This document shows, piece after piece, positions 53,213 to 64,000 of a stretch of 64,000 nucleotides of DNA. Every line of letters begins with the position of its first letter. Positions within the stretch are counted from its first letter, which is position 1. The notes under the pieces are model-generated. The model saw only the letters and a list, made by a program, of their open reading frames with translations. It was not told where the DNA came from and did not search any database. Position numbers and translations under genes: made by a program. Origin of the DNA: a virus (lineage: Duplodnaviria; Caudoviricetes); the IMG/VR virus record IMGVR_UViG_3300045391_005020, one strand, 5' to 3'.

Positions 53213-53250
53213 TTTGTACACTACTTGACTCAGAGTCAAGCCGCTTTGTT
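53213..53250 (-). promoter_or_regulatory. promoter variant for putative SSB
   Basis: TTGACT-N15-TACAAA; CTTGACT-N3-AGTCAAG palindrome; includes pol stop codon. Confidence 0.6.
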
Positions 53251-56200
53251 CATCTCGCTCGGGAGTTCCTGATCGAGCTCGCCCAACCGTTTCCTGAACA
53301 CCTCGACGTCGATCTTGATCGACTTGTCGGTGCCCGGGATCTTGTTGAGGTCGACCATGCAGAGCTGCAGGATTTGCTTCATCTCGCGGACGAACTCGGC
53401 CTTCACCTCGATGATGAAAGCGTCGTGGACCGGGATGCAGACCTTGAATCCGATCTGACGGCCGATGTCGGTGCCGTAGCGGAATCGGTACAGGTTGATG
53501 CCTGCGACGGCCAGCATGTCGGCGACGCAGCCCTGAATCGGGCTATTGGCCGCTTCGCGCCGGACCGCGGCCTTGCCGCGATCGTCCATGTCTTCCACGC
53601 CCGGGAACCAGCGACGGCGCCCGAACGGAGTTTCGACGTAGCCGTTGTTCTCGGCCGACTCCATGTTGGCCTGGATCCAAGCCCAGGCTTTACGGTACGA
53701 GCCAGCGAACGAATCGATGATCTCTTGGCAGTCTTCCTTGGTGACGCCCGGAACTTCCTTGCCGATCTCACGTGCCAACGCGGCGGCGCCGCGGCCATAC
53801 ATGAGTCCAAACACCACGGTCTTGGCCGCGGTGCGCAGAGCCGTGTACAGCTTCTTGACGCGTTCGACCCAGTCTTTGTAGGACTTGTGCCGTTCCTTCG
53901 GATCCTGGATGCCCAGGACTCGCTCCAGTTCGGTGACAAATTCCTCTTTCTTGAAGGCGCGCATTGCCACTTCGGAGTGGAGGTCGCGACCCTCTTCGAT
54001 GATCTCAGTCAGGATCTTGTCGCCAGACGCGAACGCCAACACGCACAACTCGGCGGTCTTGAAGTCGACCTCGATGAAGACGTTGCCGGCGTCAGGGACG
54101 TAGCACGACTTGAACATCGGGATGTCGAGTCGCTTCTCCTTCGGGATCTTGAGTTCCGGCGGACACTTCGACTTCGGTGAGTCGTCGGTGCGGTCGCGGT
54201 ACTCCTTCACCGTCATGGGGCGCTTGGTTGGCAGTCCCTTGGCGTCCTTCTCCTCGATCCAATCCATGTTGCGGGCCAGGAAGATCGCGAGAGCCGCGTC
54301 TTCCTGTTTCTTCGGATTGGTCTGCAGGTTTGCCTTGGACATGCGGTACCGACCGGTCGTGCTGGTCTGGTGCAGGTGTCCGCGAACACGCCCATCTCGA
54401 ACCGAGATGTTGTGGCAAATACTCTTACCGTCCTCGCGTACCCCGAACTCGTTCTGGGGCACGTCGACCAAGTAGGTCTTGAGGAACTGGCCCAGGATCG
54501 ACAGCTGCTTGAGCATGGTCAGGGTCCGGATTTCCGGATACCGGTGACTCAACATCTCGAGCGTCGCGACCTTGGTGGATGGCGAGTTCATCATCTGGGC
54601 CCGTATGCACAGCGGCTTTCCGGGTCCGTTCTGTTTCTCGTCTTCCTCCATGATCCTGGTCCACTCGACCGGATACTTATCCGAGTTGTAGAGCGGCGTC
54701 AGATCCAGGACGATGGCGTTTTCAGGCGCCTTCATCTTGTCCTTGTAGATCGCGTTACTGAATAGGAAGGCCGCGCGCTGACGGGGCGAACTCGGGTTGA
54801 AGTCCGGCCAGTTGGCTTCCTCGCGGAATTCCTTCAGGATCGCGTCATACGTGGGCTGGTAGATCGAACGCAGCTTGGCGACCCGTTCGAGATCGACCTT
54901 CAGACCCTGCCGCTCGACATCGAGTAAGTGCAGGCTGGTCGGCATCACGATGTTCTCGAACAGATGCTTGAGACGTGCGTTCGCCGGCTTGTCCATTTCA
55001 GCCATGAGCTTCATGGCCGCACGGAAGTTGGCGTCGGCGTCGTAGCAGGCGTACAAGAGCAGGATCGAATGCGGGACATTTCGGTAACCGAATCGCAGAT
55101 GCTGATTGCGGCCCGAGATGAACTTCGGTTTCGTCGGCGCCAGCGGACGGCCGCCGTCTGACTCATCGTCAGAGTCGTCCTCGGCGTCTTCCCAGGTGTC
55201 CCCGGTAAAGAGGCCGGTGTCGCGCTCATCGCTCACGACCGTGACCTTGGTAGTCCGGTAGTGCTCGAGTGCATCCTGATACTTCGCCATCTCGGCGTGG
55301 TATTGGTTGACCAGCTGGACGTCGGCGTCGTTCACCGGATTCATCTCGTCCGACAACCAGTCCTCGAGCGGCTTCCAATAAGGCCCGAACTCCGGGCAGT
55401 ATTTACGGACCAAGTGGTCCAAGCCTTCTGACTCGTCGCCTTCGGAGCCGAACAGCAGATGGTTCGCCAACATGGTATCGAAACCAGTCGCCAGCGTCTC
55501 GTCGATGTTGATACCTTCTCGCGAGGGCATCTCGATATCGACGCGAAGATGTTGTCCGATCAGCTTCACGCCTGCACGCGATTGGATACGCTGCAAGCAG
55601 GCGGCGATTCGGGCACGCTCCTCGGGCGAGTGGATGACAGCGCCGCGCTCTCCGCGCAGCTTCATCACCACCGCCTGACCCTCAGCCCAGCAGCACTGCC
55701 AGGTCAGCAGGTAATTGAATTCCTCACGGGCGCAGTCGTTGCCGAATTCTGTGTCGACACACAGATGCGTGACGTTCTTCTCAGCAAGTTCGCGTTCGAA
55801 GGCTTCCAGCTGATCGGCGTTCTCGAGCACCCGGTAACCGGGCAACCAGCCGCTGATCGGGTGCCAAGCGTTCATCAGAACCTGCTGGGCCCTGAACAAC
55901 TCGGACTTGAAGACCTCGATGCCGCCGGTCGTGCCGGTGAACACCGCCGGCGAGATCGTCGGGACCACGGGAATTCCTTCCCACGTATGGACGGTGCCGC
56001 GGAAATTGTCGAGCTTCGCGTCGTGGCCGAAGAACGCCTTGAGGGCGTCGGCGCCGAACGTGATAATCACCTTCGGTTTGCACGCATACGCATCCGCCCG
56101 CACATAGGGGGCATTGGCGCGCTTGTGCTGTTCCTTGAAGGTCTTTTCGCCGTCCGGGAGCGCGAACCTGATCGCGTGGGTTACCAAGCAGCGAGTCGGT

Positions 56201-56544
56201 TCGAAACCGGCTTCCTTGAGTTCGCGCCGCAATACCTCACCGCCGCGCGACATCAGACAGGTGCCGTACAGGATGTCTTCCTGGGACGGTGCCGGCAGAA
56301 CCAGCAGGTAGTCGCACGCAGCCCAGCCGAATCCGTGGCCTTCGAGCGTGTCGGGGCGGCAGACCGGGTGGTGGGTGGGGTTGCCCTGACACTTCACCTC
56401 AGGCGGAGTGGTCTGGAAATTTCCAACTTCGAACGCCCACATCTCAGGCGAGACGCCCGGGTAATTGTGGATCCGGTATTCGTCATGGGTCGGATGCAGC
56501 TCCACGAAACCATCGGGAAGCGCACGTAGTTCAGCAACAGTCAT
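53236..56544 (-). CDS. polA: family A DNA polymerase with N-terminal UDG-fold domain and 3'-5' exonuclease
   Basis: Exo VDTE, FDTML, YACYD; pol motifs DFKTAEL, RTAAKTVVFGLMYG, NSPIQG, VHDA; UDG-like KPKVIITFG...RG...VVPT.SPA. Confidence 0.93.
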   Translation of the reverse strand: MTVAELRALPDGFVELHPTHDEYRIHNYPGVSPEMWAFEVGNFQTTPPEVKCQGNPTHHPVCRPDTLEGHGFGWAACDYLLVLPAPSQEDILYGTCLMSRGGEVLRRELKEAGFEPTRCLVTHAIRFALPDGEKTFKEQHKRANAPYVRADAYACKPKVIITFGADALKAFFGHDAKLDNFRGTVHTWEGIPVVPTISPAVFTGTTGGIEVFKSELFRAQQVLMNAWHPISGWLPGYRVLENADQLEAFERELAEKNVTHLCVDTEFGNDCAREEFNYLLTWQCCWAEGQAVVMKLRGERGAVIHSPEERARIAACLQRIQSRAGVKLIGQHLRVDIEMPSREGINIDETLATGFDTMLANHLLFGSEGDESEGLDHLVRKYCPEFGPYWKPLEDWLSDEMNPVNDADVQLVNQYHAEMAKYQDALEHYRTTKVTVVSDERDTGLFTGDTWEDAEDDSDDESDGGRPLAPTKPKFISGRNQHLRFGYRNVPHSILLLYACYDADANFRAAMKLMAEMDKPANARLKHLFENIVMPTSLHLLDVERQGLKVDLERVAKLRSIYQPTYDAILKEFREEANWPDFNPSSPRQRAAFLFSNAIYKDKMKAPENAIVLDLTPLYNSDKYPVEWTRIMEEDEKQNGPGKPLCIRAQMMNSPSTKVATLEMLSHRYPEIRTLTMLKQLSILGQFLKTYLVDVPQNEFGVREDGKSICHNISVRDGRVRGHLHQTSTTGRYRMSKANLQTNPKKQEDAALAIFLARNMDWIEEKDAKGLPTKRPMTVKEYRDRTDDSPKSKCPPELKIPKEKRLDIPMFKSCYVPDAGNVFIEVDFKTAELCVLAFASGDKILTEIIEEGRDLHSEVAMRAFKKEEFVTELERVLGIQDPKERHKSYKDWVERVKKLYTALRTAAKTVVFGLMYGRGAAALAREIGKEVPGVTKEDCQEIIDSFAGSYRKAWAWIQANMESAENNGYVETPFGRRRWFPGVEDMDDRGKAAVRREAANSPIQGCVADMLAVAGINLYRFRYGTDIGRQIGFKVCIPVHDAFIIEVKAEFVREMKQILQLCMVDLNKIPGTDKSIKIDVEVFRKRLGELDQELPSEMNKAA

Positions 56545-57638
56545 GCTATTCCTCGATGGGTAAACGGAACCTGGTCCAACAACGCACGCATCCTGATCAT
56601 GCCCAGGTCGGCGGCGTCCGGGACCGAGATCTTCTTGTTCTTGGGATCGGCGAACTTCTGGCGCGCGATCGCCAGCACTTCCTCGGGCCACTGCAAGATG
56701 TGGGCCGGGACCTTGAGGTATTGGTCGAGCTTCTTTTTCATCTCGAGCGCGAAGACGCGTTTCCGCTCATCGCGCGGATCTGGGATAGTGGTCTCGGGAT
56801 CGATCGCGATGATGGCGGTGCGCCATTTCTTCGCGAAGGCAACGCAGCGCTCGTCGTCCAGGTCCTTGCCGAAAATCGCGATCCCGTTGGGTCCGCACGC
56901 GATCGCGTTGGTGATGCCTTCGCAGATAATCGGGATCTGGGATTCGTGGACGTTGTCGCCGTTGTAAAAGCACTTCCTGAAATGCGGATTGAACATCCAC
57001 TTCGGCTCGGAGCCGTCGATCGCGCGTCCCTGCCAACCGGCCAACTGGCCGTCGACCAGGATTGGGAAGATGACGCGGTTCCGGGCCTTCGGGTAGAGTT
57101 CGTCGTGCTGTTCGGTAAACAGGGCGCCGTAGACTTTTCCCAGGTACTCCGGCGTCAGGCCGTTGTACTTGACGTTCAGGAACTGGCAGGCCTTGTGGTC
57201 CGCCTGCAACGACTGCAAGGGCACGCAGCCCAGCGGCAACCGCAACGGCGGAATCTCGACCTGCGGAGCCAGCTGCGCGAACATCTCTGCGGCTCCGCTC
57301 GGAGTCCCGATGTCGTCCAGGAACTGGCGATAGAACTCCTCCCTGTAGACCTGACAACCTCTTCCGGTTTCACACCGAATGTTGTGGGTCAGGCGCGGGA
57401 ACTCTTTCGACGGGATCGTGAGCCACGAGTGGCCGATCCACAGCCGATACTTGGTATCACCGCAGAGCGGGCAGCACACGCTGTATTGCTCGCCGCCCTG
57501 GTACACATCCAGGTGCCGGCGTCCGAAAGTATCGTACTCGACGCGCCACTTCATGGGCACGCCGACACTAGAAATCTTGACCGTCCCGAACCGGCGCTTG
57601 AGCGCCGCATAGAGGATCGGATTGAGCGGTTGCGTCAT
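56541..57638 (-). CDS. DNA primase (Zn-binding + TOPRIM)
   Basis: CPLCGD, RVIFPI..GWQGR, ICEGITNA, AIDPE, DAAD. Confidence 0.88.
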   Translation of the reverse strand: MTQPLNPILYAALKRRFGTVKISSVGVPMKWRVEYDTFGRRHLDVYQGGEQYSVCCPLCGDTKYRLWIGHSWLTIPSKEFPRLTHNIRCETGRGCQVYREEFYRQFLDDIGTPSGAAEMFAQLAPQVEIPPLRLPLGCVPLQSLQADHKACQFLNVKYNGLTPEYLGKVYGALFTEQHDELYPKARNRVIFPILVDGQLAGWQGRAIDGSEPKWMFNPHFRKCFYNGDNVHESQIPIICEGITNAIACGPNGIAIFGKDLDDERCVAFAKKWRTAIIAIDPETTIPDPRDERKRVFALEMKKKLDQYLKVPAHILQWPEEVLAIARQKFADPKNKKISVPDAADLGMIRMRALLDQVPFTHRGIA

Positions 57639-61268: not shown

Positions 61269-61323
61269 GCGGGCCAGGAGTCGCCTCCTGGCCCGCAGAC
61301 ACGTTCAGCGGCAAACGCCGCTG
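61269..61323 (-). terminator. two hairpins after the Ubl gene
   Basis: CAGCGGC/GCCGCTG and GCGGGCCAGGAG-N4-CTCCTGGCCCGC-TTAT. Confidence 0.55.
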
Positions 61324-61327
61324 TCAG

Positions 61328-61846
61328 TTAGTTACCCTTGATCTTGCGGACCAAGTGGACGCTGTCGTTGTTCGACAGGATGTGGTCGAGACCGACCACG
61401 CGACCGCCGGAGCGGATCTCGAGGCCCGAGATGTCGCCCAAGCCGGCGGTGTCGATGGCGCAGCGCACGCTGCGGTCGCCGTTCAGGGTGATCTCGGTGA
61501 TGACGCCCGGGAGCTTGCCGATGCGAACGCGAATGAAGTCGTCGTTCTCTTCGTCGCCCGCGTCGTCGTCGAGGTCATCGTCGCCGTAGGTGTCGTCGTC
61601 GCCGTCGACATCGTCGCTGTAGTCGGGGGCGTTGCCCTTGATCTTGCGGAGCAGGAGCACGGTCTGGCCGTCGCTCAAGGTGGTGTCGAGAGTGGCGTCG
61701 GCGCCGCTGACGCGGATCTGGTAGCCGTCGGCCACGAGGCCCGCGAGCTCCAGCGCCTTGCGGACGCTGCGATCGTTAACGAGTCCGACGTCCTGCATCG
61801 CGCCGCCGGGAGCAATGCCAACCTTAACAGTGATGGTGACTTCCAT
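61328..61846 (-). CDS. tandem di-ubiquitin-like (beta-grasp) precursor
   Basis: Two ~70-aa repeats (DRSVR.A...AGL....IR..G...LD..L....V.L.RKIKGN) joined by a ~30-aa Asp-rich linker; next to E1 and JAB. Confidence 0.85.
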   Translation of the reverse strand: MEVTITVKVGIAPGGAMQDVGLVNDRSVRKALELAGLVADGYQIRVSGADATLDTTLSDGQTVLLLRKIKGNAPDYSDDVDGDDDTYGDDDLDDDAGDEENDDFIRVRIGKLPGVITEITLNGDRSVRCAIDTAGLGDISGLEIRSGGRVVGLDHILSNNDSVHLVRKIKGN

Positions 61847-61929: not shown

Positions 61930-62622
61930 CTAGATTTCGCCGGCAACCAAATTGAGCGGTTGCAGGCCGACGATCGTGGAGAGCTCCGGAAGAATCGACC
62001 CAGGAGCGGCGTTCTGGTAGCTGAACCAACGGATGAGATGCCAGACCGCGATGCTCGAGATACAGGCCGCGGTGGCCCCGACCGTAGTAGCGGCGCCACA
62101 AGCTGACGTCTCCGCTTCTGCGTCGGTGTAGGTCATGGTGCCTTCCCAATACTGGATCTGGGAGGGCTCGCAGGGATTGATCGCGTAGATGCGCCCGGAG
62201 TCGGCGCCCATCCTGGTTTCCACCATGAGGGCGACGTGGGCCTTGTACTTCAGCGACTTTTCCCAGATCGCCTTGCGCGATTCCATGGTGTCGGTCAGCA
62301 GGAAAACGATGGAGCCGAGCTGTTCGCCACCCAGGACCTTGACCGGGTGCATCGTGATGGCGGTACCGGTTTGGCGCTGCACGAATTCCGCAAGCGCCTC
62401 GACTTTCAATTTACCGATATCGTCATTGCCGAAGACCTGGTTGGCGATGTTGTGTTCGGCCACAACATCGTCGTCCCAGACGTGGATGTTCTGGATCCCG
62501 AGCTTCGCGAGCTCGAGAACGACTCGACTCCCGGTCGCGCCGGCGCCGATCACATCGACGCGACGGTTAGCGAATTGACCGGGATCGAATACTTTCAAGT
62601 GTCTGAGTGCGTCAACAGCCAT
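61930..62622 (-). CDS. ThiF/E1-like Ubl-activating enzyme
   Basis: VIGAGATGS, WDDDVV..HNIANQ, KV.AL, LTD, candidate catalytic Cys in ETSACG. Confidence 0.92.
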   Translation of the reverse strand: MAVDALRHLKVFDPGQFANRRVDVIGAGATGSRVVLELAKLGIQNIHVWDDDVVAEHNIANQVFGNDDIGKLKVEALAEFVQRQTGTAITMHPVKVLGGEQLGSIVFLLTDTMESRKAIWEKSLKYKAHVALMVETRMGADSGRIYAINPCEPSQIQYWEGTMTYTDAEAETSACGAATTVGATAACISSIAVWHLIRWFSYQNAAPGSILPELSTIVGLQPLNLVAGEI

Positions 62623-62630
62623 GGGAAACC

Positions 62631-63701
62631 TCAGATGTTGGGGAATTCAATGTGTTGTTCGTCCACAAGAATCGGGGCCGGAACCTCCGGCTGGGTTGCT
62701 GGAACTTCTTGAGGGGCGGGCAAGCTCGGGGCCCTGCCGGCCTTTACTTCGTCGATGTGACGGATGATCTCGGTGGCTTCATTGGCCGCGTTCTGTTTGC
62801 GGGCCAAAGCTTCGGCGCGGAACAATTTGCGCAGACGCTTGGCCTCGCGACGTTCCTCGCGGGTCTTGTACTTGAAGCCATTGGTGCGCGCGAGATGTCC
62901 GAAGAACTCGTCTTCGGGAGTCTCGCGCCTGCTGGATCGCATGACTTCATTCGCGAACTCGCGATCGGCGGCCGTATCGAAGTCGTCGTCGCGGAAGTCC
63001 ATGTAGCCGTAGCCGTCTTCGTCCCAGGTGCGGCCAGAGTATGCACCCTGAGCCGGAGTCTGGTTGTTGTACGGATGCTGATACCCGGAGTGACGTCCCG
63101 CGTAGTAGCCGTGACCGTACGGATTCGACGGCGCGGCGTAGGTGATCTTCTTGACCTTGTCGGCGATCTCCTTCTCCCAATAGGCGCGGCGTCCCGCGTC
63201 CAACGGAAGATCGATCGACCACTCGACGTCCCTGATCACCAGCTTGGCGGCAAATAGGAAGACGTCGAACTTGGCCTCGCGCTTCTTGTTGAAGATGCCG
63301 CGGATGAAGAACTCAGCACCGTTCTGCTGAAAGTCCTTCATCTGCGACTCGTCTTGGCCCGACGGACTCACGCCCATGTTGACGTGGCTGTGGCCCCAGA
63401 AGCGGATCCGATTGATGATCTCGTCCGCGTCGGTGCGCTGGCTCAGCTCGTTGTACAGGACTTCTTGTCCTTCCGGAGTCAGCTCGGTCGTGGTGGAGTG
63501 CACCTGCTGGCCCGGCATGAAGATCTCGTCGATCACATAGTCGTTTCCGCGTTGGTACACGGAACCGAGCCAACCGACCTCGTCGCCGACGATGTCGACC
63601 AGATGCCACATATCCTCGTAGGCATCCGGGTGGATGAAGATCTTTGGGGTCTCGATCTTGGGCATCTCGACCACGGTGTTGAATACGTGTGGACTAAACA
63701 T
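62631..63701 (-). CDS. JAB/MPN+ (JAMM) Ubl protease with long low-complexity C-terminal tail
   Basis: EVGWLG and WGHSHVNMGVSPSGQD (HxH-x7-S-x2-D). Confidence 0.9.
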   Translation of the reverse strand: MFSPHVFNTVVEMPKIETPKIFIHPDAYEDMWHLVDIVGDEVGWLGSVYQRGNDYVIDEIFMPGQQVHSTTTELTPEGQEVLYNELSQRTDADEIINRIRFWGHSHVNMGVSPSGQDESQMKDFQQNGAEFFIRGIFNKKREAKFDVFLFAAKLVIRDVEWSIDLPLDAGRRAYWEKEIADKVKKITYAAPSNPYGHGYYAGRHSGYQHPYNNQTPAQGAYSGRTWDEDGYGYMDFRDDDFDTAADREFANEVMRSSRRETPEDEFFGHLARTNGFKYKTREERREAKRLRKLFRAEALARKQNAANEATEIIRHIDEVKAGRAPSLPAPQEVPATQPEVPAPILVDEQHIEFPNI

Positions 63702-63715
63702 GGTACCTTTCACCC

Positions 63716-64000
63716 TCAAACGAGGGGACGTCCATTCGCATCGCATTCGCGACCGTCAGGAGTGAAGTAAGTCACCGTCGGGATGCCGTTCACGTCGTTC
63801 GGCGCCTGTGCAGGAGCCGCCGCAGGGCGCAGCTTGATCTTCTCCGCGATCGCTTTCATGCGATCACGGTCGGCTTGGATGCGGGCCGCTTCGGCCGCGT
63901 CGATCTTGACGTATTCCTCGTCGGTCTTGGCGAGCGGCCAGCGGTCGCACTTGGCGCCGGCTGGGTCGTCGACATTCACGCTCTGGAGATACCCGATCAG
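63716..64000 (-). CDS. C-terminus of probable E2-like protein (partial)
   Basis: Frame open to edge: LIGYLQSVNVDDPAG resembles the E2 post-catalytic helix/loop (I..LL..PN.DDP); operon context. Confidence 0.45.
   Translation of the reverse strand: MIGYLQSVNVDDPAGAKCDRWPLAKTDEEYVKIDAAEAARIQADRDRMKAIAEKIKLRPAAAPAQAPNDVNGIPTVTYFTPDGRECDANGRPLV

What the first reader, a model, noticed from the sequence alone, without database searches (positions are those of the whole stretch)
61328..61846. Polyubiquitin-like precursor: two divergent Ubl domains, both ending RKIKG-N
Seen: residues 1-72 end LLRKIKGN and residues ~104-172 end LVRKIKGN. The RKIKGN tail is identical while the domain cores have diverged. 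The linker (PDYSDDVDGDDDTYGDDDLDDDAGDEENDD) is almost pure acid. Inference: the neighbouring JAB cuts after each Gly (G71, G171), releasing two distinct modifiers with single-Gly termini. The second would carry a polyanionic N-terminal tail, so conjugating it would graft a DNA-mimic-like acidic segment onto its target. The terminal Asn cap makes activation JAB-dependent. A conserved internal cleavage site is the eukaryotic polyubiquitin logic.
Basis: partly seen in the sequence, partly recalled or inferred. Interest (0 to 1): 0.85.

Follow-up and report, generated by a model that had tools for sequence, protein, structure and literature searches.

The report
Phage polyubiquitin-like tag precursor
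A large uncultured phage encodes two ubiquitin-like tags joined head to tail, beside its own activating, conjugating and trimming enzymes; the layout resembles the eukaryotic polyubiquitin gene, but each tag most likely ends in asparagine, not glycine.

Summary
Window 61328-61846 (minus strand) encodes a 172-aa protein with two confidently predicted beta-grasp domains. Both end in RKIKGN, and a 30-residue disordered acidic linker joins them.

The protein belongs to a large uncultured-phage and metagenome family (320 representative clusters). Members have 1, 2, 3 or 4 head-to-tail repeats. All 284 scored repeats end x-Gly-(Asn 87% / Ala / Gly). The gene is the last of a conserved cassette: E2-like, JAB/JAMM, minimal ThiF-type E1, (poly)Ubl. 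All four parts are present in 44 of 47 loci with enough flank. The polyubiquitin-style precursor reading is therefore well supported.

The proposed cut site is probably one residue off. The Asn aligns with the terminal Gly of SAMP2, MoaD, ThiS and SUMO. Deeper relatives have Gly-Gly at the same place. No terminal repeat ends at the bare Gly (0 of 123), while 65 end exactly at the Asn. The Asn is therefore more likely the last residue of the mature tag than a cap.

The acidic linker is lineage-specific, and the DNA-mimic idea is untested.

I found no paper describing this phage family. Unchecked notes from this scan report similar phage cassettes in other genomes. I rate it a new variant of a known kind.

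The parts
61328..61846 (-). Di-Ubl precursor gene, 172 aa (P0002)
   Evidence: ORF and translation. 320 representative clusters hit at E<=1e-3. Two beta-grasp domains are predicted.
61631..61846 (-). Ubl unit 1, residues 1-72, tail RKIKGN (G71, N72)
   Evidence: pLDDT >90 for residues 4-67. The repeat HMM covers residues 1-72.
61541..61630 (-). Acidic disordered linker, residues 73-102 (17 D/E, 0 K/R). The DNA holds about 3 copies of an 18-nt unit.
   Evidence: A comparable long acidic linker was seen in only one other representative, P0024.
61331..61540 (-). Ubl unit 2, residues 103-172, tail RKIKGN. The protein ends at N172.
   Evidence: pLDDT >90 for residues 104-167. VIA Z 9-10 to RnfH, MoaD and SAMP1. 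The profile aligns the final G-N onto the terminal GG of SAMP2.
61269..61323 (-). Two GC-rich hairpins just after the stop codon (61306-61323, 7-bp stem; 61269-61296, 12-bp stem). They are a possible end of the operon.
   Evidence: Read directly. There is no U-tract, and the terminator scan did not flag them.
61930..62622 (-). Minimal ThiF-type E1, 230 aa (P0003), with GxGxxG, D111, R116 and an invariant Cys175
   Evidence: PF00899 at 5.4e-18. Invariant columns in 5 relatives. The profile against PDB hits MccB, ThiF, UBA5 and UBA1.
62631..63746 (-). JAB/JAMM metallopeptidase (P0004), with E56, H119-S-H121, S129 and D132, plus a low-complexity C-terminal half. The true start is probably Met16 at 63701.
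   Evidence: Motif invariant in 32 relatives. Profile hits Rpn11/PSMD14 at 1.3e-4, plus BRCC36, CSN5 and JAMM1. Predicted complex with the Ubl.
63716..64000 (-). Last 94 codons of the upstream E2-like gene. The rest lies beyond the window end.
   Evidence: Its ..YLQSVNVDDPAG segment matches ..YLESVNTSDPAG of the L001 E2-like protein (E 9e-6). Relatives carry P-H-(V/I)-x3-G-x-(P/A)-C-x-G about 25 residues upstream of that segment.

Best explanation
The gene encodes a polyubiquitin-style precursor of two different ubiquitin-like modifiers. It is the last gene of a phage-borne E2-like / JAB / E1 / Ubl conjugation cassette.

Proposed steps:
1. The JAB peptidase cuts the precursor at the internal junction, most likely after Asn72 rather than after Gly71. 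This frees unit 1 (residues 1-72) and unit 2 (residues 73-172). Unit 2 keeps the acidic linker as an N-terminal tail and already ends at the functional Asn172.
2. The 230-aa ThiF-type E1, which is probably a homodimer, adenylates the C-terminal carboxylate and takes the tag onto its invariant Cys175.
3. The tag passes to the Cys of the upstream E2-like protein (motif P-H-V-x3-G-x-P/A-C-x-G-N). That protein's long, variable N-terminal part would choose the targets, which could be host or phage proteins.
4. The JAB could also remove the tags again.

Shown here: the folds, the repeat architecture across the family, conservation of the tail, conservation of the cassette and the catalytic motifs.

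Inferred: the cleavage itself, its register, the thioester relay, the targets and the biological role.
For: - Two beta-grasp domains with a disordered linker. The best fold matches are linear di-ubiquitin, polyubiquitin and ISG15. Single-domain Z is 9-10 to RnfH, MoaD and SAMP1.
- Family size: 320 representative clusters. The 152 examined comprise 38 single, 81 double, 27 triple and 6 quadruple forms, mostly with 1-4-residue junctions.
- Gly is invariant in 284/284 repeats. The next residue is N/A/G in all 161 inner and 123 terminal repeats. Adjacent repeats have diverged to a median 70% identity and as low as 28%, so the inner tails are under selection.
- Register. The profile's final G-N aligns onto the terminal GG of SAMP2 (3.3e-7), MoaD and TtuB at the very chain ends. 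GG-type relatives match ThiS and SAMP2 models through their second Gly. Tail length is the same in the GG and GN clades. 0/123 terminal repeats end at Gly, 65 end at the N/A/G position, and the residues after it are variable. A sub-clade has ..KIKSN.
- Cassette: all four components occur in 44 of 47 loci with enough flank, out of 102 distinct loci.
- JAMM motif invariant in 32 relatives, and the profile hits Rpn11.
- E1 invariants, including Cys175.
- E2-like motif, with UBC-like spacing, in 81 of 93 proteins. A low-confidence model (pLDDT 64) retrieves almost only UBC E2 enzymes, with E 0.01-0.1 and probability up to 0.99.
- JAB-Ubl complex prediction:
  - Score 0.90 against a best control of 0.64. 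That mark was reached by 58 of 80 solved complexes and 2 of 110 mismatched pairs.
  - The runs agree in at least 98% of contacts, and partner pLDDT is at least 93.
  - The Ubl tail (residues 166-172) contacts E56, W117, H119 and S129-D132.
  - A like complex, JAMM1-SAMP2 (PDB 5lda), is solved, so the pass may reflect likeness rather than this pair.
Against: - No experiment exists on any member of the family.
- An E1 acting on a C-terminal Asn of a Ubl has no precedent among protein modifiers. The known case is MccB acting on a heptapeptide.
- JAMM peptidases normally take Gly at P1.
- In this copy the E2-like gene is only partly inside the window. Its active-site region was seen only in relatives.
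- The E2 fold match is weak (E >= 0.01, from a 4-sequence model).
- The complex model cannot tell a cut after Gly from a cut after Asn.
Confidence: 0.52

Rival explanations
1. It has the same precursor and the same cassette, but the JAB cuts after each Gly (G71, G171). The mature tags then end in a single Gly, as in UFM1 or ATG8. The Asn is an obligatory one-residue cap and the P1' determinant of the peptidase.
For: - Gly is the only fully invariant tail residue in the main data set (284/284).
- BubCD and other JAB peptidases cut right after a conserved Gly (PMC11601596).
- Single-Gly Ubl termini exist in eukaryotes (established knowledge).
- Small residues (N/A/G) after the Gly would fit a tight S1' site.
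- GG-clade relatives nearly always carry a 1-3-residue cap, whereas GN-clade proteins often carry nothing after Asn. The Asn could therefore have become the cap.
Against: - Asn aligns with the terminal Gly of SAMP2, MoaD, ThiS and SUMO, and with the second Gly of GG-clade relatives. There is no indel, so the mature tail would be one residue shorter than in its own relatives.
- No family member has lost the supposed cap (0/123).
- Caps of known Ubl precursors vary in identity. Here variability begins only after the Asn.
- The Ser-Asn sub-clade keeps the Asn but not the Gly.
Confidence: 0.25
2. The protein is not cut internally. It acts as one two-domain modifier, like ISG15, BilA or the 2-3-domain Bub Ubls. 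The inner RKIKGN would then be a relic of the duplication or a binding element, and only the C-terminal end is used.
For: - ISG15 is among the best fold matches.
- Bacterial Bil and Bub Ubls with 2-3 beta-grasp domains are studied as single units (PMC11601603; PMC11601596).
- The 30-aa linker differs from the tight junctions of true polyubiquitin.
Against: - The inner tails are as conserved as the terminal ones in 161/161 inner repeats, despite strong divergence of the cores.
- Copy number changes from 1 to 4 between close relatives. One locus, L025, has a single and a double gene side by side.
- Most junctions leave only 1-4 residues between a complete tail and the next first strand, which is the polyubiquitin layout.
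Confidence: 0.1
3. The E1, Ubl and JAB form a sulfur-carrier system of the ThiS/MoaD/CysO/QbsE type. It would make a thiocarboxylate for a phage-specified thio-modification, with the JAB only exposing the C-terminus.
For: - The closest sequence and fold relatives include MoaD, ThiS, TtuB and SAMP proteins.
- The E1 is a minimal ThiF/MoeB-type enzyme.
- JAB trimming of sulfur carriers is established knowledge for Mec+/CysO and QbsD/QbsE.
Against: - The E1 has no rhodanese domain (230 aa).
- No ThiG, MoaE, CysM or TtuA-like partner appears among the genes read around the cassette.
- An E2-like gene with a conserved Cys accompanies the triad in 44 of 47 loci.
- Known sulfur carriers end in Gly-Gly, not Gly-Asn.
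- No sulfur carrier is known as a multi-copy precursor.
Confidence: 0.05

Closest known systems
Archaeal SAMP2 / UbaA / JAMM1 (sampylation)
   Same: - It is the best sequence relative with a solved structure (5lda_B at 3.3e-7, 4hrs_A at 8e-6).
- It has the same small beta-grasp.
- The tail is nearly the same: ..LIKGG against ..KIKGN.
- It uses a MoeB/ThiF-type E1 and a JAMM peptidase that binds the tail.
   Different: - SAMP2 ends in Gly-Gly, is a single-copy gene and needs no E2.
- Here the end is Gly-Asn, the gene is a tandem precursor and an E2-like protein is part of the cassette.
- The carrier is a phage rather than an archaeal cell.
Eukaryotic polyubiquitin genes (UBI4, UBB, UBC)
   Same: - Head-to-tail Ubl units, each with the full C-terminal tail.
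- Variable copy number.
- Often one or a few extra residues after the last unit.
- Release by a dedicated peptidase.
   Different: - The units are not identical (46% here, median 70% in the family).
- This copy has a 30-residue acidic spacer.
- The processing enzyme is a JAMM metallopeptidase encoded next door, not USP or UCH cysteine proteases.
- The terminal residue is Asn.
Bil systems (BilA Ubl, BilB E2, BilC JAB, BilD E1), bacterial anti-phage defence
   Same: - The four activities are the same.
- The E2 is presumed to pick targets without an E3 (PMC11601596).
   Different: [quoted passage not shown] Here there is a single 230-aa domain.
- Bil is a bacterial defence operon, whereas this cassette sits in a phage replication region.
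- Neither the Ubl nor the E1 profile retrieved an entry titled Bil from PDB.
Bub / '6e' polyUbl operons (Iyer, Burroughs, Aravind 2006, PMC1779556; Ye et al. 2024, PMC11601596)
   Same: - Prokaryotic proteins with 1-3 tandem Ubl domains, already called reminiscent of polyubiquitin.
- A JAB cleaves a Ubl fusion right after a conserved Gly.
   Different: - Bub has JAB-E1 or E2-E1 fusions, a DUF6527 serine protease and oxyester chemistry without catalytic Cys.
- Its multi-domain Ubls are treated as one unit.
- Here the genes are separate, Cys is conserved in E1 and E2, and every repeat carries a complete tail.
MccB / MccA (microcin C)
   Same: - MccB is a ThiF/E1-family enzyme that activates a C-terminal Asn (PMC4010828, PMC11118369).
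- It is the top PDB hit of the E1 (2.3e-5 with the single sequence, 1.5e-12 with the profile).
   Different: - The match covers only the Rossmann half and is barely better than ThiF or UBA5.
- The E1 here lacks MccB's N-terminal peptide-clamp domain.
- The substrate here is a folded Ubl, and an E2 and a JAB are present.

Membership tests
Ubiquitin-like beta-grasp modifiers of the ThiS/MoaD/SAMP superfamily | Beta-grasp fold | tested here: met
   AF2 pLDDT >90 for both domains. Z 9-10 to RnfH, MoaD and SAMP1. SAMP2 hit at 3.3e-7 by profile.
Ubiquitin-like beta-grasp modifiers of the ThiS/MoaD/SAMP superfamily | C-terminal Gly-Gly exposed for activation | tested here: not met
   Both units end Gly-Asn. 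GG is present only in the deeper clade of the same cassette.
Ubiquitin-like beta-grasp modifiers of the ThiS/MoaD/SAMP superfamily | Pfam ThiS (PF02597) at gathering score | tested here: not met
   P0002 has only a sub-threshold TGS hit (16.4 against 22.2). The GG-type relative P0157 does pass (34.0 against 22.5).
Polyubiquitin-type precursor | Head-to-tail units, each with the complete C-terminal tail, with variable copy number among relatives | tested here: met
   1-4 repeats, with the tail kept in 284/284.
Polyubiquitin-type precursor | Units joined without a spacer | tested here: not met
   This copy has a 30-residue linker. Most relatives have 1-4 residues.
Polyubiquitin-type precursor | Proteolytic release of the single units | not testable with these tools
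   Only a predicted JAB-tail complex is available.
JAMM/MPN+ metallopeptidases | E ... HxH-x7-S-x2-D zinc site | tested here: met
   E56, H119, H121, S129 and D132 are invariant in 32 relatives. Rpn11 hit at 1.3e-4. No Pfam hit for this copy.
E1 / ThiF adenylyltransferases | Rossmann GxGxxG, Mg-binding Asp, Arg and Lys of the adenylation site | tested here: met
   PF00899 at 65.5 bits against a cutoff of 28.1. Invariant columns.
E1 / ThiF adenylyltransferases | Catalytic Cys for a thioester | tested here: inconclusive
   Cys175 is invariant in 5 relatives. Its position relative to the crossover loop was not modelled.
UBC-fold E2 | HPN-type loop followed by the catalytic Cys at fixed spacing | tested here: met
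   P-H-(V/I)-x3-G-x-(P/A)-C-x-G is present in 81 of 93 cassette proteins, with the same spacing as HPN-x4-G-x2-C of UBC enzymes. The comparison with UBC rests on established knowledge. The motif of the window's own copy lies beyond the window.
UBC-fold E2 | UBC fold | tested here: inconclusive
   The model has pLDDT 64 from 4 sequences. Nearly all of the top 50 Foldseek matches are E2 enzymes, but E is 0.01-0.1.
Bil (BilABCD) | [quoted passage not shown] | tested here: not met
   The E1 is 230 aa with one adenylation domain. The Bil architecture is as described in PMC11601596.
Bub / 6e | JAB-E1 or E2-E1 fusion | tested here: not met
   The genes are separate here and in 102 related loci. The Bub layout is described.
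Bub / 6e | DUF6527 protease present in the operon | not tested
   No DUF6527 hit appeared among the proteins scanned with Pfam, but I did not search for it specifically.
PRTRC cassettes (NCBIfam TIGR03735-03738) | PRTRC_ThiF model at its curated cutoff | tested here: not met
   42.1 bits against a cutoff of 144.75. There was no NCBIfam hit for the Ubl, the JAB or the E2-like proteins.
MccB-type peptide nucleotidyltransferases | N-terminal peptide-clamp domain before the adenylation domain | tested here: not met
   The E1 starts directly with the Rossmann domain. MccB residues 109-197 align to residues 20-106.
MccB-type peptide nucleotidyltransferases | Substrate with a C-terminal Asn | tested here: met
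   N172 is the last residue. 87% of family repeats have Asn there.

The most novel reading that the evidence does not exclude
The mature tags end in Asn, and this changes the chemistry. Activating a C-terminal Asn, as MccB does with MccA, gives an acyl-adenylate that readily closes to a succinimide. The phage system might therefore attach its tags through an Asn/isoAsn-type linkage. It might instead make a nucleotidylated Ubl end, or even use Asn cyclisation to help split the precursor. Any of these would be a conjugation mechanism distinct from all Gly-terminated ubiquitin-like systems.
Probability: 0.12. Interest if true: 0.92.

Novelty: new variant of a known kind. Interest (0 to 1): 0.74.

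Why it matters
Ubiquitin-like conjugation in bacteria has so far been studied as a defence against phages (CBASS Cap2/Cap3, Bil, Bub). Here the phage itself carries a complete E1/E2/peptidase/tag kit. The kit recurs in about a hundred uncultured large-phage contigs, so protein tagging may be a common phage tool for host take-over or counter-defence.

The tag gene also reproduces the polyubiquitin gene layout outside eukaryotes. In this case every unit keeps its own tail, which gives a simple system for asking why modifiers are made as polyproteins.

Finally, an Asn in place of the terminal Gly would widen what E1, E2 and JAMM enzymes are thought to accept. All of this can be tested with four small recombinant proteins.

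Tried and rejected
- tblastn of the protein against 50,697 deposited phage genomes gave no match.
- No whole genome is held for the window.
- Exact look-ups of P0002 and P0004 found no contig, so I could not read beyond the window end.
- A single-sequence E1 scan of viral contigs found nothing. The 59-sequence alignment was too diverse to seed a scan. Smaller alignments worked.
- Pfam, PHROGs, NCBIfam and PADLOC give no family for the Ubl or the E2-like protein. For the E1 and the JAB they give only generic or sub-threshold hits.
- The word-based homologue search for the E2-like domain found one protein only.
- The C-terminal domains fused after two Ubl repeats in some relatives have no Pfam family.
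- The terminator scan did not flag the hairpins after the gene.
- The complex prediction cannot decide between a cut after Gly and a cut after Asn, because the modelled chain simply ends at Asn.
- I considered covariation of E1 and JAB pocket residues with GG versus GN tails. I dropped it because the two tail types fall in separate clades, so any column would separate them.
- Five literature searches found no paper on a phage E2-JAB-E1-polyUbl cassette or on Asn-terminated Ubls.
- The DNA-mimic role of the acidic linker has nothing for or against it beyond composition.

Full report
**1. What is there.** The ORF lies on the minus strand (61846->61328; ATG start, TAA stop; 172 aa).
- Residues 1-72 end ..LLRKIKGN and residues 103-172 end ..LVRKIKGN.
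- Residues 73-102 are 30 aa with 17 Asp/Glu and no basic residue. They are encoded by DNA holding about 3 copies of an 18-nt unit.
- The two domains share 46% of residues and 62% of bases. The 18 nt for RKIKGN differ at one base.
- AlphaFold2 with a 59-sequence alignment gives mean pLDDT 86.9. It predicts two beta-grasp units (strands and helix at 4-67 and 104-167, pLDDT >90) and a linker at pLDDT 55-60.
- The best Foldseek matches are linear di-ubiquitin (2.7e-7), a Naegleria polyubiquitin and ISG15.
- As single domains, the best structural matches are RnfH, MoaD, SAMP1, SUMO and Urm1, at Z 8-10.

**2. The family.**
- An exhaustive HMMER search of 1.84 billion representatives finds 320 clusters at E<=1e-3 and 80 at 1e-10.
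- I segmented the best 152 with a repeat HMM. They comprise 38 single, 81 double, 27 triple and 6 quadruple forms with a period of about 70 residues. Most junctions leave only 1-4 residues between one tail and the next first strand.
- In 284 complete repeats the Gly is invariant. The residue before it is mostly Lys (222) or Arg (33).
- The residue after the Gly is Asn (87%), Ala (8%) or Gly (5%), equally in 161 inner and 123 terminal repeats. Beyond it the sequence is variable.
- Adjacent repeats have a median identity of 70% and go as low as 28%. The inner tails are therefore kept by selection, not only by recent duplication.

**3. The neighbourhood.**
- On the same strand, upstream of the Ubl gene, lies a 230-aa ThiF-family E1 at 61930-62622 (PF00899, 5.4e-18).
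- Upstream of that is a JAB/JAMM peptidase at 62631-63746. It has no Pfam hit, but E56, H119-S-H121, S129 and D132 are invariant in 32 relatives. A profile of it hits Rpn11/PSMD14 (1.3e-4), BRCC36, CSN5 and archaeal JAMM1.
- The last 94 codons of a further gene run off the window at 63716-64000. They match the C-terminal end of large proteins that precede the JAB gene in related contigs (E 9e-6).
- Those large proteins share a C-terminal domain with the motif P-H-(V/I)-x3-G-x-(P/A)-C-x-G, present in 81 of 93 copies. The spacing equals that of the HPN...Cys active-site loop of UBC enzymes; this comparison rests on established knowledge.
- A low-confidence model of the domain (pLDDT 64, 4 sequences) retrieves almost only E2 enzymes among its top 50 matches, at weak E-values of 0.01-0.1.
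- Scans with an E1 alignment returned 80 metagenome, 31 viral and 80 MAG loci. Among 102 distinct loci, 47 had enough flank, and 44 of these carry all four components.
- Many of the contigs are 60-220 kb viral contigs, and some are several hundred kb. The window itself continues downstream with a helicase, a DnaB-like protein, a primase and a UDG-PolA fusion.

So this is a phage-borne E2 / JAB / E1 / Ubl cassette. The constant presence of an E2-like protein with a conserved Cys argues for protein conjugation rather than sulfur transfer. So do the absence of a rhodanese domain and of any ThiG, MoaE, CysM or TtuA-type partner.

**4. Five results point one residue further.
1. A profile of 40 single repeats finds SAMP2 as the closest solved relative (3.3e-7). 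Its last two positions, G-N, align onto the terminal Gly-Gly at the very end of the SAMP2, MoaD and TtuB chains. Haloferax SAMP2 ends ..LIKGG, against ..KIKGN here.
2. In the deeper clade of the same cassette (E1 30-39% identical to the window's), the Ubls end ..KGG followed by a 1-3-residue cap, and inner junctions read ..KGG|SD... Tail length is the same as in the GN clade. Pfam ThiS and NCBIfam SAMP2 models align through the second Gly.
3. Structural alignments of unit 2 run to N172 against MoaD, Smt3 and SUMO chains that end at their terminal Gly. The tail itself is modelled with low confidence.
4. None of 123 terminal repeats ends at the Gly. 65 end exactly one residue later and 58 carry further, variable residues. 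This is the pattern of classical caps placed after the Asn.
5. A sub-clade reads ..KIKSN, keeping the Asn but not the Gly.

I therefore consider it more likely (about 2:1) that the mature tags end ..Lys-Gly-Asn. On that reading the JAB cuts N72|A73, and unit 2 needs no C-terminal trimming. The alternative, Asn as an obligatory P1' residue and cap, is not excluded.

**5. JAB-Ubl contact.** I ran a complex prediction of the JAB core with unit 2.
- It scored 0.90 against a best control of 0.64. That mark was reached by 58 of 80 solved complexes and 2 of 110 mismatched pairs.
- The runs agree in at least 98% of contacts, and partner pLDDT is at least 93.
- The interface places tail residues 166-172 against E56, W117, H119 and S129-D132.
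- A like complex, JAMM1-SAMP2 (PDB 5lda), is solved, so the pass may be from memory.
- The prediction does not resolve the register.

**6. The linker.**
- It is predicted disordered and is not conserved. Only one other representative (P0024) has a long, strongly acidic linker, and a few have short acidic ones.
- Single-domain members often carry strongly basic N-terminal tails (net +6 to +10) or acidic ones (net -4 to -9). Charged N-terminal tails therefore look like a recurrent accessory of these tags.
- If the precursor is cut at the junction, unit 2 keeps the acidic tail.
- Nothing here supports or contradicts a DNA-mimic role.

**7. Comparison with known systems.**
- Iyer, Burroughs and Aravind (2006, PMC1779556) already described bacterial polyUbl proteins with 1-3 repeats and called them reminiscent of polyubiquitin. 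Those operons are now called Bub. They have JAB-E1 or E2-E1 fusions, a DUF6527 protease and oxyester chemistry, and their multi-domain Ubls are handled as single units.
- Bil systems have the same four activities but a much larger E1, and they are bacterial defence operons.
- The E1 fails the PRTRC_ThiF cutoff (42 against 145 bits).
- MccB is the top PDB hit of the E1 and is the known E1-family enzyme that activates a C-terminal Asn. However, the match covers only the Rossmann half, is barely better than ThiF or UBA5, and the clamp domain is absent.
- Five literature searches found no description of a phage cassette of this kind or of an Asn-terminated Ubl.
- Unchecked notes of this scan report similar phage poly-Ubl cassettes in other genomes, including one with a Lys-Gly-Asn tail and one ending Lys-Ala. 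They are consistent with what I measured but are not independent evidence.

**8. Verdict.**
- The finding is real. I read the gene as a polyubiquitin-style precursor inside a widespread phage E1/E2/JAB conjugation cassette. This reading is inferred from comparison and has not been tested by experiment.
- The cut-site register and the cap idea are probably wrong by one residue.
- The function of the linker is open.
- I rate it a new variant of a known kind, with interest 0.74.

Noticed in passing
L023, L006, L025, L029, L017, L012 (related loci): Related cassettes carry 2-6 paralogous E2-like genes beside one JAB-E1-Ubl set. 12 of 93 E2-like proteins lack the P-H..C motif and may be inactive UEV-like copies.
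   Followed up: partly
P0068, P0069, P0090, P0110, P0123, P0124, P0130, P0035, P0080, P0117; L040 3642-4691: Some family members have one or two Ubl repeats followed directly after ..KGN by an unknown 100-240-residue domain with no Pfam family. The layout recalls ubiquitin-ribosomal-protein fusions.
   Followed up: partly
L049 10234-10899, L089 10416-11153, L097 10230-10895 and large JAB-containing ORFs further downstream: In several phage contigs, a second, weaker Ubl-like two-repeat ORF (ending ..QGA or ..KGA) and a large ORF with a JAB-like segment lie 3-6 kb downstream of the cassette.
   Followed up: no
L110 1061-4573 and 6301-8601: One viral contig carries two cassettes side by side. One has a GN-type Ubl and the other a GG-type Ubl, each with its own JAB and E1.
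   Followed up: no
window 53236-56691 (-): The family A DNA polymerase has an N-terminal uracil-DNA-glycosylase-superfamily domain (PF03167, 1.2e-8, residues 134-250).
   Followed up: no
window 63701-63746 (-): The JAB ORF as listed overlaps the end of the E2-like ORF. Relatives align from Met16 (MFSPHVF..), 14 nt after the upstream stop, so Met16 at 63701 is the likelier start.
   Followed up: partly
L127, L135, L137, L146 and other genome-contig loci: All close E1 relatives in the species-genome collection are MAG contigs labelled Patescibacteria/CPR, Obscuribacterales and the like. Several are single contigs of 250-740 kb, possibly huge phages binned as bacteria.
   Followed up: no
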